Shown: in pieces, positions 21,001-24,000 of the stretch | How the letters are laid out: every line of letters starts with the position of its first letter | Numbering within the stretch: position 1 is the first letter of the stretch | Assembly: GCF_002854065.1 (NCBI RefSeq) | Contig: NZ_CP024149.1 | Direction: 5' to 3' (one strand) | Source of the DNA: Escherichia coli | GTDB taxonomy: Bacteria; Pseudomonadota; Gammaproteobacteria; Enterobacterales; Enterobacteriaceae | DNA length: 33,301 nt | Position numbers: made by a program

Positions 21001-24000
21001 TTGCTTGTGGCTTTTGTTAAGGTGGATTATCCGACTTGGGGCAAGGGTTTGATGCGCCGATTGGGCTTGATCGTGGCAAGTCTTGCGCTGATTTTACTGC
21101 CTGTGGTGGCGTTCAGCAGTCATTATGCCAGTTTCTTTCGCGTGCATAAGCCGCTGCGTAGCTATGTCAATCCGATCATGCCAATCTACTCGGTGGGTAA
21201 GCTTGCCAGTATTGAGTATAAAAAAGCCAGTGCGCCAAAAGATACCATTTATCACGCCAAAGACGCGGTACAAGCAACCAAGCCTGATATGCGTAAGCCA
21301 CGCCTAGTGGTGTTCGTCGTCGGTGAGACGGCACGCGCCGATCATGTCAGCTTCAATGGCTATGAGCGCGATACTTTCCCACAGCTTGCCAAGATCGATG
21401 GCGTGACCAATTTTAGCAATGTCACATCGTGCGGCACATCGACGGCGTATTCTGTGCCGTGTATGTTCAGCTATCTGGGCGCGGATGAGTATGATGTCGA
21501 TACCGCCAAATACCAAGAAAATGTGCTGGATACGCTGGATCGCTTGGGCGTAAGTATCTTGTGGCGTGATAATAATTCGGACTCAAAAGGCGTGATGGAT
21601 AAGCTGCCAAAAGCGCAATTTGCCGATTATAAATCCGCGACCAACAACGCCATCTGCAACACCAATCCTTATAACGAATGCCGCGATGTCGGTATGCTCG
21701 TTGGCTTAGATGACTTTGTCGCTGCCAATAACGGCAAAGATATGCTGATCATGCTGCACCAAATGGGCAATCACGGGCCTGCGTATTTTAAGCGATATGA
21801 TGAAAAGTTTGCCAAATTCACGCCAGTGTGTGAAGGTAATGAGCTTGCCAAGTGCGAACATCAGTCCTTGATCAATGCTTATGACAATGCCTTGCTTGCC
21901 ACCGATGATTTCATCGCTCAAAGTATCCAGTGGCTGCAGACGCACAGCAATGCCTATGATGTCTCAATGCTGTATGTCAGCGATCATGGCGAAAGTCTGG
22001 GTGAGAACGGTGTCTATCTACATGGTATGCCAAATGCCTTTGCACCAAAAGAACAGCGCAGTGTGCCTGCATTTTTCTGGACGGATAAGCAAACTGGCAT
22101 CACGCCAATGGCAACCGATACCGTCCTGACCCATGACGCGATCACGCCGACATTATTAAAGCTGTTTGATGTCACCGCGGACAAAGTCAAAGACCGCACC
22201 GCATTCATCCGCTGATTTCTCCCTGTATTTTTTCCAAACCCACCGCACACTCCATTCGTATTATGGGCGGTGGGGTGGGGTTTGTTATGCCGTATTTATC
22301 AAATAAACGCCTACTTGCTGAGATGAGTATCGCTCTTGTCATGGCGATCGTTGCCACGCTGACCCTTGAGCACAGTCAGATTGATCTGATGGTCGCTGAT
22401 TGGTTTTATCTGGGTATGGGGCATTGGATGGTTGCCAAGCAAGCTTTTTTGCCAGATTTGCTACTGTATTCTGGACTAAAAAAGCTGCTGATGGCGATGC
22501 TGATCTACTTGCTGGTTGCGACCATTTGCCGTGCTTATCATGAGAAAAAGGGCAATGCTATCACTGCCAAGTGGCTTGTCCCAGTGACAAAATTTCGCGT
22601 GCGTGAGCTTGCGTATCTGGTGCTGACTTTGATCCTAGTGCCGACAGTTGTCGCGTCATTGAAGGCATATACTCATGTGGTCTGCCCTGTGCATTTGACG
22701 ATTTTTGATGGTACGCTGCCGTATTTGCCGATGCTTGATAGTATGCGTAACACCATTCCTGATAAGTGCTTTCCTGCGGCGCATGCCAGTAGCGGATTTG
22801 CGCTGTTTGCCTTTGCGTTTGCGCCAAGTTTGCGCCGCCGTCGTGGTGCGATCATCATCGTGGTGATGGCATTGGGCTGGGCGATGGGCTGCTATAAGAT
22901 GATTATTGGCGATCATTTTTTGAGCCATACGGTGGTGTCGATGATGCTTGCGTGGGCGATGTCGGCAGGGCTTGCGTGGGTGTTTTTTAAGAAGGGTGAA
23001 CAAGCCTTTAAAAGTAAAAACGGTCGTATCGGTTATTACGGAACGGTTTTTTCAGTTGAGTTTCAAAGCGATGATTCATCAACCTGGAAACTACCAATAG
23101 GAACGGCTTTACTTACGCCTATCGGTCAAGAATTGATGAAAATATGCGGTTCCACTCCAGATATTGCGTATTTAAATAAATTCCTCAACAAAATAAATGT
23201 TGAAGGAAGCCAGGTAAAACTATCAATTATTAATATGTAAAGAGGTCGAGTTACCTGTCTGAGTTCCACTAACCATAATTAAAAGCGACCGCAAAAACTG
23301 CCCAGTGAAAACTGTGTTGCCAGTAATCACAAATGCAGCAAGTACTAATAAAGAGCCTGTTAAGCCCGCAAATATGTGGGCTTATTTTTAATTACTCTTC
23401 ATCATCCCGCAGGAACTGACAAAAATCTTCGCTCCCCATCATATCGACAGTGTTTTTAAATTCGAAAAAAGAAATTCCTGTCATAGCACACACGCGCTGG
23501 ATAATCAGTTTTTTCTTTTGCTGTCTGACGGTTGCGGTTTCACCAAACTGGATAACAGCCAGGACTGTTTCATCATATGATTTCAGGACAAAATCACAGG
23601 TTATATTCTGCACTTCACGGATTAAATCTTTTACAGCTTCCTCGCTACCATGAGGACGAACAAATTCAATGAGCCGTATTTTGGGAAAAACGGAATAATC
23701 AGGTATAATATTACGTGAAAGAATGCCTAAAAACTCTGATTCATTATTTGAGAGTAAGGGTACTTTAGTAAAACAATCAACCTCCCCAATGGCTGTAAAA
23801 GCATTGGTTGTCAAAGCTGGATTGTTCTTAATAAAATCAGAGAATACATTTTCAGCTGATGGCAAAACAACAGCAGAATTATGTTGTTCATCTCGTTTTT
23901 TATTACGGTTAAATATCATTTCATATTCCTTTTAAAAGAGCCTGCGGCAGGCACAGGCAAAAACATCGTTTTTGGACAATCTGATTCAAATGTTAACATT

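What the first reader, a model, noticed from the sequence alone, without database searches (positions are those of the whole stretch)
23392..23919. Unknown 175-aa ORF placed relative to oriT-like copy A exactly as taxA is to copy B
Seen in sequence: both oriT-like copies are followed outward, at 13-17 bp, by a gene start. At copy B that gene is the RHH accessory protein taxA; at copy A it is this unrelated ORF on the minus strand, ending in an acidic tail (LRDDEE). It has no obvious RHH signature and so is not a taxA paralogue. Its promoter must overlap the oriT-like element, implying co-regulation with relaxosome assembly.
Basis: inference. Interest (0 to 1): 0.35.

Follow-up and report, generated by a model that had tools for sequence, protein, structure and literature searches.

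The report
IncX4 version of ddp3/taxD gene
The "unknown" gene next to the second transfer origin of this mcr-1 IncX4 plasmid is the IncX4 counterpart of ddp3/taxD, a known IncX backbone gene, and it encodes a restriction-nuclease-fold protein that has lost most catalytic residues, so the finding is real but largely ordinary.

Summary
A 94-nt inverted repeat (23934-24027 and 30724-30817) is an R6K-type oriT duplicated in inverted orientation. Each copy is followed outward, 17 or 13 nt after the last exactly shared base, by a start codon: taxA at copy B, and the 175-aa ORF (23392-23919, minus strand) at copy A.

The ORF is not unknown. It is WP_000577043.1, which passes Pfam DUF2726 (a PD-(D/E)xK, restriction-endonuclease fold). 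It sits in the slot pir-bis-oriT-gene that ddp3/taxD ("DNA distortion polypeptide 3") occupies in other IncX plasmids. Profile-profile comparison links the two families (95.9%, E 6e-9). A confident model (pLDDT 88.7) matches only nuclease-fold structures.

The canonical E-L-D-D...H motif is Q-F-G-E...A here, and IncX1 DDP3 has lost everything. I therefore read it as a non-catalytic relaxosome accessory at oriT.

The gene is under strong purifying selection (dN/dS about 0.1). The same oriT-to-gene geometry recurs in three other lineages.

A published Tn-seq screen of an IncX4 plasmid carrying the identical protein does not list it among the genes essential for transfer. A shared promoter inside the repeat is plausible but unproven. 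The adjacency to pap2 results from insertion of the mcr-1 cassette.

The parts
23392..23919 (-). 175-aa gene (WP_000577043.1): a DUF2726 / PD-(D/E)xK-fold protein and the IncX4 counterpart of ddp3/taxD. Residues 1-20 are disordered and basic. Residues 21-56 carry a conserved N-terminal motif (NVFSDFIxNNP...NAF). Residues 57-156 form the nuclease-fold core. The C-terminus is an acidic tail.
23926..23931 (-). Shine-Dalgarno-like AAGGAA, 6 nt upstream of the ATG.
   Evidence: read directly from the sequence; an AAGGA is similarly placed in L011
23934..24027 (.). Long inverted repeat, copy A: the replicon-proximal oriT.
   Evidence: IncX literature PMC3402527 and PMC3332091
24017..24023 (+). nic-like ATCCTG|C. 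The T-strand at copy A would be the + strand, leaving rightward towards bis and pir, so the ORF would enter the recipient last.
   Evidence: sequence; ATGCAGGATAG is invariant in four lineages; the nic position is inferred from the MOBP consensus (my own knowledge)
23975..24015 (.). Large oriT palindrome (hairpin 3). Its arms differ between lineages but stay palindromic, and its centre AAATGnTAnCATTT is invariant.
23940..23974 (.). Two small hairpins: GCCTG-CGG-CAGGC (23940-23952) and CAAAAAC-ATC-GTTTTTG (23958-23974). On the minus strand the outer one is followed by TCTTTTAAAA, which is terminator- or attenuator-like. This occurs at copy A only.
   Evidence: a T-tract is also present on the ORF side in L011 and L007
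23990..24017 (-). Candidate outward promoter inside the repeat: TAGACA, 16-nt spacer, TGtTAACAT (extended -10). The -35 hexamer abuts the nic site.
   Evidence: identical site on the + strand at 30734-30761 in copy B. This is a consensus match only.
23361..23384 (.). Backbone hairpin 8 nt beyond the ORF's stop codon, with its T-run on the + strand. The mcr-1/pap2 cassette begins just beyond it.
24054..24458 (-). bis-like 134-aa ORF, downstream of pir and upstream of copy A.
   Evidence: the order pir-bis-ddp3 is described in PMC3402527
24471..25343 (-). pir (Rep3-type replication initiator).
30724..30817 (.). Long inverted repeat, copy B: the oriT next to taxA and taxC.
30828..31331 (+). taxA (DDP1, RHH-type relaxosome accessory protein).
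31335..32564 (+). taxC (MOBP relaxase, DDP2).
   Evidence: ddp2 = taxC according to PMC3332091

Best explanation
The ORF is the IncX4 representative of the IncX backbone gene ddp3/taxD. That gene is always placed directly outside the replicon-proximal copy of the duplicated oriT, mirroring taxA-taxC at the other copy.

The protein is a small, soluble, acidic member of the DUF2726 branch of the PD-(D/E)xK (restriction-endonuclease) fold. Its active site is degenerate, so it most likely does not cut DNA.

Proposed mechanism (inferred, not shown): it joins TaxA (an RHH protein) and TaxC (the relaxase) at the oriT hairpin and nic region. There it would act as a non-catalytic, structure- or partner-binding subunit that helps melt or distort oriT, as the R6K DDP1/2/3 trio is reported to do. 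Its effect on transfer would be modulatory rather than essential.

Its 5' control region is either the outward promoter-like site inside the repeat, which is shared verbatim with taxA and abuts the nic site, so relaxosome occupancy would repress both genes. Or it is read-through from pir-bis. A hairpin plus T-tract found only on the ORF side probably keeps its expression lower than that of taxA.
For: Identity and fold:
- Pfam DUF2726, E 1.8e-13, 50.8 bits against a cutoff of 24.7.
- The only NCBIfam hit is DDP3, E 1.7e-6.
- hhalign of the plasmid subfamily profile against the DDP3 family gives 95.9%, E 5.9e-9, covering the full length of DDP3.
- IncX1 DDP3 itself has DUF2726 as its best, sub-threshold Pfam hit.

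Synteny and geometry:
- The order Rep3/pir, bis-like gene, repeat, this gene occurs in IncX4, in a Yersinia IncX4-like plasmid (65% identity), in L007 (34% identity) and in IncX1. In L004 and L008 the gene order Rep3, bis-like, PLDc_2, DUF2726 is kept, but no long inverted repeat was found within the fetched stretch.
- In each of the three IncX4-type lineages (IncX4, L011, L007) the repeat ends at ...ggctct, 11-20 nt before both start codons. In IncX1 the 99-nt repeat ends differently (...ggattt) and overlaps the annotated ddp3 ATG by 5 nt.
- The IncX literature places ddp3 (taxD) beside the second oriT and calls it a transfer auxiliary gene (PMC3402527, PMC3332091, PMC4222815).

Loss of catalytic residues:
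- The canonical motif ...DFV...IELDDxSH... reads CDFV...IQFGETA here. Q124 is nearly invariant and G126 invariant, and the His is absent. IncX1 DDP3 has LPLII...ISFEQ at the same positions.

Real gene:
- The full-length 173-175-aa family is conserved down to 59% identity.
- pN is 0.21 against pS 0.74-0.82, and dN/dS is 0.08-0.10.

Promoter-like site:
- It lies inside both repeat copies.
- An extended -10-like TGnTAnCAT at the palindrome centre is invariant in four lineages.
Against: - Tn5 saturation mutagenesis of IncX4 plasmid pHNSHP23, which carries the identical protein, named 18 genes essential for transfer, and this ORF is not among them (PMC8725589). Any contribution is therefore below that screen's 100-fold threshold or redundant.
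- The protein is acidic overall (pI 5.06; IncX1 DDP3 pI 4.63). That is unusual for a direct DNA binder, so it may act through TaxA or TaxC instead.
- The NCBIfam DDP3 equivalog cutoff is not reached (28 bits against 140).
- D109, E60 and E62 are retained, so residual or altered catalysis cannot be excluded.
- I could not read the primary R6K papers (Flashner 1996; Nunez 1997). What DDP3/TaxD does biochemically rests on their titles and on secondary citations.
- No TSS or expression data for this ORF were accessible.
Confidence: 0.6

Rival explanations
1. It is an active DUF2726-type nuclease used for plasmid competition, anti-phage defence, or cleavage of recipient or host DNA. On this reading its position next to oriT is incidental.
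For: It passes Pfam DUF2726. It has the PD-(D/E)xK fold. E60, E62 and D109 are invariant. DUF2726 is treated as a restriction-endonuclease-fold DNase in conflict systems (PMC3710099).
Against: Three of the motif positions conserved in canonical DUF2726 (E, D and H of IELDDxSH) are replaced by Q, G and A. The syntenic IncX1/X2 proteins have lost all of them. There is no PADLOC hit. There is no partner immunity or methylase gene. The position next to oriT is conserved down to 34% identity (with the repeat shown) and the pir-bis-DUF2726 gene order down to 25-26%.
Confidence: 0.1
2. It is a replication accessory rather than a transfer protein. It would distort the repeat because the repeat doubles as an R6K-like alpha or beta replication origin, acting with pir and bis, with which it may be co-transcribed.
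For: It is co-oriented with and directly downstream of pir-bis. The R6K DDP proteins were first described as distorting the alpha and beta origins (title of Flashner 1996, cited). [quoted passage not shown]
Against: Tn5 insertions were tolerated everywhere on pHNSHP23 except pir, tsxB and mcr-1, so the ORF is not needed for maintenance in the laboratory (PMC8725589). The repeat has all the hallmarks of a MOBP oriT. Alpha and beta origins have not been demonstrated for IncX4.
Confidence: 0.15
3. It is a second, restriction-endonuclease-fold nickase that processes oriT copy A, by analogy with the nuclease-fold MOBC relaxases such as pAD1 TraX.
For: It has a nuclease fold and sits next to an oriT. 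The existence of nuclease-fold relaxases is recalled from my own knowledge and was not tested here.
Against: The two oriT copies are 99% identical, so the TaxC relaxase serves both. The catalytic motif is degenerate. The protein is only 175 aa. It is not essential for transfer (PMC8725589).
Confidence: 0.03
4. It is a decaying passenger gene with no current function.
For: It was not found to be essential for transfer or maintenance (PMC8725589). Catalytic residues are progressively lost across lineages.
Against: There is strong purifying selection over the full length, with dN/dS about 0.1 and saturated synonymous sites. 57 columns are invariant. The position is conserved in every IncX-like backbone examined.
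Confidence: 0.07

Closest known systems
DDP3 / TaxD ('DNA distortion polypeptide 3') of R6K (IncX2) and IncX1 plasmids; NCBIfam NF041452
   Same: - Same slot in the backbone: pir/repX, bis, long inverted repeat with the second oriT, then the gene, reading outward.
- Homologous core by profile-profile comparison: 95.9%, E 5.9e-9.
- Both proteins are acidic, and both have degenerate nuclease motifs.
   Different: - IncX4 protein is 175 aa against about 117 aa. It has an extra, conserved 56-residue N-terminal region and an acidic KDDEE tail.
- It still passes Pfam DUF2726 and keeps E60, E62, K80 and D109, whereas DDP3 has lost them.
- About 20% identity; it scores 28 bits against the 140-bit equivalog cutoff.
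Canonical DUF2726 proteins (PF10881), restriction-endonuclease-fold, function unknown
   Same: The domain scores above the gathering threshold. hhalign of the plasmid subfamily against canonical members gives 99.6%. The secondary-structure order is the same, and R82 is invariant.
   Different: Canonical members have an N-terminal transmembrane helix, often a C-terminal zinc ribbon, and the intact motif DFV...IELDDxSHxRxxRxxRD. The IncX4 protein is soluble, has Q-F-G-E for E-L-D-D, lacks the His, and is tied to an oriT.
Vsr / DUF559 / I-Bth0305I endonuclease group (PDB 1cw0, 3hrl, 3r3p)
   Different: Those proteins are active nucleases with the acidic and His residues intact. Sequence identity to the ORF is only 11-15%.
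TaxA (DDP1), the RHH relaxosome accessory protein at the other oriT copy
   Same: Mirror-image position. Its upstream sequence is identical to the ORF's up to 13-17 nt before the ATG.
   Different: Unrelated fold (RHH against PD-(D/E)xK). Basic (pI 9.0) against acidic (pI 5.1). Essential for transfer, whereas the ORF is not.

Membership tests
Pfam DUF2726 (PF10881) | HMM score at or above the gathering threshold (24.7 bits) | tested here: met
   50.8 bits, E 1.8e-13, residues 53-156 against profile positions 2-110 of 126
Pfam DUF2726 (PF10881) | PD-(D/E)xK (restriction-endonuclease-like) alpha-beta-beta-beta-alpha-beta core fold | tested here: met
Pfam DUF2726 (PF10881) | Conserved putative catalytic motif: D in 'xDFV', E-x-D in 'IELDD', and H in 'SH' | tested here: not met
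   D109 is kept, but IELDD reads IQFGE and SH reads TA. Q124 is nearly invariant and G126 invariant in the family.
DDP3 / TaxD (NCBIfam NF041452 equivalog) | HMM score at or above the curated cutoff (140 bits) | tested here: not met
   28.3 bits, E 1.7e-6. It is the only NCBIfam hit.
DDP3 / TaxD | Detectable homology to the DDP3 family | tested here: met
   hhalign gives 62% with the narrow profile. It gives 95.9%, E 5.9e-9 with the widened plasmid subfamily profile and 96.9% when canonical members are added.
DDP3 / TaxD | Location directly outside the replicon-proximal long inverted repeat (second oriT), downstream of pir/repX and bis | tested here: met
   Window; IncX1; literature description (PMC3402527)
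DDP3 / TaxD | Acts together with DDP1 (TaxA) and DDP2 (TaxC) to distort DNA in the repeats, as a transfer auxiliary | not testable with these tools
   This needs KMnO4 footprinting and mobilisation assays. The only indirect data are that the ORF is not among the 18 transfer-essential genes in the IncX4 Tn-seq screen (PMC8725589).
RHH relaxosome accessory (TaxA paralogue) | Ribbon-helix-helix domain or similarity to TaxA/DDP1 | tested here: not met
   No RHH, DDP1, MobA or TraJ hit for the ORF, whereas TaxA hits all of them. The model has a different fold.
Known anti-phage defence proteins (PADLOC-DB) | Match to any defence-system HMM | tested here: not met
   0 families at E <= 1

The most novel reading that the evidence does not exclude
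DDP3/TaxD-type proteins, including this IncX4 form, are exapted, catalytically dead restriction-endonuclease-fold proteins that serve as a third relaxosome subunit specific to plasmids with two inverted oriTs. Such a subunit could recognise the extruded oriT cruciform or hairpin; the nearest folds include the junction-resolving enzymes VRR-NUC and Hjc. Or it could bias which of the two oriTs fires, and so coordinate transfer with pir-dependent replication of the segment between them. The IncX4 protein would then be an evolutionary intermediate between an active DUF2726 nuclease and the fully degenerate R6K DDP3.
Probability: 0.3. Interest if true: 0.45.

Novelty: new member of a known kind. 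Interest (0 to 1): 0.25.

Why it matters
IncX4 plasmids are among the main vehicles of mcr-1, and their transfer biology is only partly mapped. One IncX4 paper places oriT at a different, software-predicted site, and the IncX4 Tn-seq study treats this gene as an unnamed CDS.

Recognising the two R6K-type oriTs and naming this gene as the ddp3/taxD counterpart corrects the annotation. It also gives DDP3, a 30-year-old protein with no assigned fold, a structural family: degenerate DUF2726 / PD-(D/E)xK.

The practical value is modest. It predicts that the protein is a non-catalytic relaxosome partner, explains the mirrored gene arrangement, and points to simple experiments. It does not change how mcr-1 expression or spread is understood.

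Tried and rejected
- BLASTP of the ORF against IncX1 DDP3 found nothing (E 7.5). The apparent 35.6% tblastn hit (H59) came from a 24-aa identical C-terminal remnant lying downstream of the IncX1 ddp3 stop, not from ddp3 itself.
- The first AF2 run, on the shallow 19-sequence family alignment, failed (pLDDT 47). It was rescued by adding distant relatives.
- The AFDB libraries were unavailable.
- A sequence-profile search of PDB found no solved relative.
- My own DDP3 HMM scores the ORF at only 13 bits. Homology needed profile-profile comparison with intermediates.
- The PixR paper's supplementary tables hold no per-gene Tn-seq index or TSS for this ORF. I identified cds4 and cds16 by mapping their deletion primers, which excluded them as this ORF.
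- The primary R6K papers are not held.
- I considered and rejected four readings: a taxA paralogue, a defence nuclease, a second relaxase, and a regulator of mcr-1/pap2. The reasons are given under the rival explanations.
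Full report
**What the window is.** The window is an IncX4 mcr-1 plasmid, essentially identical to pECGD-8-33 and pHNSHP23. Around the finding, all on the minus strand, lie pir (24471-25343), a bis-like 134-aa ORF (24054-24458) and the 175-aa ORF (23392-23919). On the other side is the mcr-1/pap2 cassette.

**Checking the observation.**
- The repeat finder reports one long inverted repeat with arms at 23934-24027 and 30724-30817: 94 nt, 99% complementary.
- Read outward, both arms end ...gccgcaggctct. At copy A, 17 nt including an AAGGAA Shine-Dalgarno sequence precede the ORF's ATG. At copy B, 13 nt precede the taxA ATG.
- The gene at copy B is TaxA (NCBIfam DDP1, 230 bits), followed by the MOBP relaxase TaxC.
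- The repeat looks like an oriT. As single-stranded DNA it forms three hairpins (dG -24.9 kcal/mol, z = -7.3). The largest, at 23975-24015, is followed directly by ATCCTG|C (24017-24023). I recognise this from general knowledge as the MOBP nic consensus.
- The nicked strand at copy A would be the + strand and would leave towards bis and pir. The ORF, like taxA-taxC at copy B, therefore lies on the side transferred last.

**What the ORF is.**
- It is annotated in RefSeq as WP_000577043.1, 'DUF2726 domain-containing protein', and it passes the Pfam model (50.8 bits against 24.7).
- DUF2726 is classed in the PD-(D/E)xK nuclease superfamily near Vsr and DUF559 (PMC3424549).
- Its only NCBIfam hit is 'DNA distortion polypeptide 3' (DDP3), at E 1.7e-6 and far below the equivalog cutoff.
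- The IncX literature lists ddp3 (= taxD) as a backbone gene that follows repX/pir and bis. It lies next to the second of the two oriTs, which are carried in long inverted repeats, and it is regarded as a transfer auxiliary (PMC3402527, PMC3332091, PMC4222815).
- The underlying R6K papers are Avila 1996, Flashner 1996 and Nunez 1997. I could confirm them only as citations, not read them.

**Testing the homology to DDP3.**
- Direct BLASTP against an IncX1 DDP3 fails.
- The exhaustive HMM search found only 24 representatives at E <= 1e-3 among 1.8 billion proteins. They form a tight IncX4-type family, four intermediates at 25-34% identity, and then canonical membrane-anchored DUF2726 proteins.
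- hhalign of the IncX4 family alone against a DDP3 family alignment gives 62%, E 7.5e-5. With the intermediates added it gives 95.9%, E 5.9e-9 over the whole DDP3 length. With canonical members added it gives 96.9%.
- DDP3 proteins themselves have DUF2726 as their best, sub-threshold Pfam hit.
- So DDP3 is a shortened, highly degenerate DUF2726 domain, and the IncX4 ORF is a better-preserved relative sitting in the same slot.

**Comparative anatomy.** The order Rep3/pir, bis-like gene, DUF2726 gene holds for every relative whose fetched contig reaches upstream of the gene; P0026's 2.2-kb contig does not. Some have a PLDc_2 gene inserted. Where both sides were available, a perfect inverted repeat was found. 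In the three IncX4-type lineages (window, L011, L007) it ends at ...ggctct, just before the gene on one side and before the taxA-like gene on the other:

| Lineage | Repeat length | Distance to start codons |
|---|---|---|
| Yersinia IncX4-like plasmid (L011, 65% aa identity) | 93 nt | 19 nt and 11 nt |
| Distant IncX-like plasmid (L007, 34% identity) | 281 nt | 20 nt before the DUF2726 ATG |
| IncX1 | 99 nt | repeat ends ...ggattt and overlaps the annotated ddp3 ATG by 5 nt |

- The nic-proximal ATGCAGGATAG and the palindrome centre AAATGnTAnCATTT are invariant across the four lineages.
- The palindrome arms change between lineages but stay palindromic.

**Is it a real gene?**
- Yes. Nineteen family members down to 59% identity keep the full 173-175 aa, with 57 invariant columns.
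- Against two relatives at about 65% identity, synonymous sites are saturated (pS 0.74-0.82) while pN is 0.21. dN/dS is 0.08-0.10 where it can be computed. The N-terminal 52 codons are also constrained.

**Structure and active site.**
- With the deeper alignment, AF2 gives pLDDT 88.7 and pTM 0.76. The model has the alpha-beta-beta-beta-alpha-beta nuclease core at residues 57-156 and a well-predicted helical N-terminal segment at residues 21-50.
- In the joint alignment, canonical members read KHxDFV...IELDDxSHxRxxRxxRD. The IncX4 family reads ITCDFV...(I/V)QFG(E/D)xxxVRQQKK. D109 is kept, but the motif's Glu is a nearly invariant Gln, the following Asp is an invariant Gly, and the His is gone.
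- IncX1 and IncX2 DDP3 have lost all of these residues (LPLII...ISFEQ).
- I infer a non-catalytic protein, at about 80% confidence.
- The protein is acidic overall (pI 5.06), with one basic helix at 131-147 (net +5) and an acidic tail. It may work as much through TaxA (pI 9.0) or TaxC as through direct DNA contact.

**Regulation.**
- A sigma-70-like site, TAGACA-16-TGtTAACAT, lies inside the repeat facing outward at both copies: 24017 to 23990 on the minus strand and 30734-30761 on the plus strand.
- Its -35 hexamer abuts the nic site, which is the usual arrangement for relaxosome autoregulation.
- L007 has an even better version (TAGACA-16-TGaTATCAT).
The ORF could also be read through from pir-bis.
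- On the ORF side only, the outer hairpin is followed by a T-tract: TCTTTTAAAA here, with comparable tracts in L011 and L007. This looks like a terminator or attenuator and would uncouple its level from that of taxA.

**Functional data.**
- High-density Tn5 mutagenesis of pHNSHP23 found insertions tolerated everywhere except pir, tsxB and mcr-1. It identified 18 transfer-essential genes: 10 pilX genes, taxA, taxB, taxC, tsxA, cds4, cds9, cds10 (pixR) and cds16 (PMC8725589).
- I mapped the cds4 and cds16 deletion primers to window 19358-19625 and 27373-27607.
- I also confirmed that pHNSHP23 encodes the identical WP_000577043.1.
- The ORF is therefore not essential for maintenance or, at the screen's 100-fold threshold, for transfer.

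**The pap2 adjacency.**
- IncX4 plasmids without mcr-1 match the window only from about 23358 onward and carry the same gene. An IncX1 plasmid shares backbone sequence down to 23348.
- The convergent arrangement with pap2 is therefore a by-product of cassette insertion about 40 nt beyond the ORF's stop, just past a backbone hairpin (23361-23384). A designed link to mcr-1 expression is unlikely.

**Verdict.** The feature is real, and the geometry is a conserved IncX design. The gene is the IncX4 member of the ddp3/taxD kind. The modest new point is that this kind is a degenerate DUF2726 / restriction-endonuclease fold. The mechanism, a non-catalytic relaxosome accessory with modulatory effect, is inferred.

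Noticed in passing
window 23991-24027; L015 (NZ_CP034955.1) 1808-1928: Small Col(BS512) plasmids of 2088-2113 bp encode only a Rep protein and are typed 'non-mobilizable' by PLSDB. They carry about 100 nt homologous to the IncX4 oriT, with 37-41 nt identical over the inner hairpin arm and the ATCCTGC nic region. This is a candidate orphan oriT that IncX4 TaxA/TaxC could mobilise in trans.
   Followed up: partly
L002 (NZ_CP124389.1, IncX1) 8178-8296 against window 23466-23348: Directly downstream of the short IncX1 ddp3 lies a 119-nt stretch 95% identical to the last 75 nt of the IncX4 ORF plus its downstream hairpin, encoding the identical ...FEFKNTVDMMGSEDFCQFLRDDEE*. This marks a recombination breakpoint inside the 3' end of the gene and suggests that oriT-ddp3 modules are swapped between IncX subgroups.
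   Followed up: partly
window about 22980-23240: Relative to pECGD-8-33, the window has an 8-nt deletion (GAACAAGTTTAATCGGCTTT becomes GAACAAGCCTTT) that removes the pap2 stop codon. This extends the PAP2 reading frame by about 77 codons to 23240.
   Followed up: partly
window 23940-23958 (minus strand); L011 9960-9990; L007 5960-5990: The outer oriT hairpin is followed by a T-rich tract only on the ddp3-like side of the repeat, in three lineages, and not on the taxA side. This may be an attenuator that sets asymmetric expression from an otherwise identical upstream sequence.
   Followed up: no
ORF residues 21-56 (window about 23752-23859): An N-terminal motif NxFSxF(I/L)xxNPxxxxxAF...GE..C is conserved between the IncX4 family and the 25-27% identical plasmid relatives (P0026, P0028, P0031). 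It is absent from IncX1/X2 DDP3 and from canonical DUF2726 proteins. It is predicted with high confidence as two short helices and could be a partner-binding module.
   Followed up: no
L004 5359-5880; L008 1573-2097: In two distant IncX-like plasmids a PLDc_2 (phospholipase-D/Nuc-like nuclease) gene sits between the bis-like gene and the DUF2726 gene. There, a second nuclease-fold gene occupies the same oriT-proximal slot.
   Followed up: no
window 26332-26631 and 28412-28711: A 300-nt direct repeat (99% identical) lies inside the segment between the two oriTs, flanking the DnaJ-domain gene region.
   Followed up: no
H13/H14 (NZ_CP086499.1 and similar, 4237 bp): 4.2-kb 'plasmids' carry two places matching the IncX4 repeat plus fragments of IncX4 T4SS genes (pixR-like, eexN, two T4SS genes). 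They are either deletion derivatives bounded by the two oriTs or assembly artefacts.
   Followed up: partly
Literature: PMC6287198: An IncX4 mcr-1 plasmid paper reports a single oriT-like region predicted by oriTfinder, with 14-bp repeats GCAGGTGAGCAAAG...CTTTGTTCACCTGC. This is a different site from the R6K-type duplicated oriT found here.
   Followed up: no
window 19349-19618 (cds4) and 27370-27912 (cds16): The two small hypothetical genes flagged as transfer-'essential' by Tn-seq in PMC8725589, whose deletion reduced transfer only about 4-fold, map next to parA/mipZ and within the inter-oriT leading segment, respectively.
   Followed up: no
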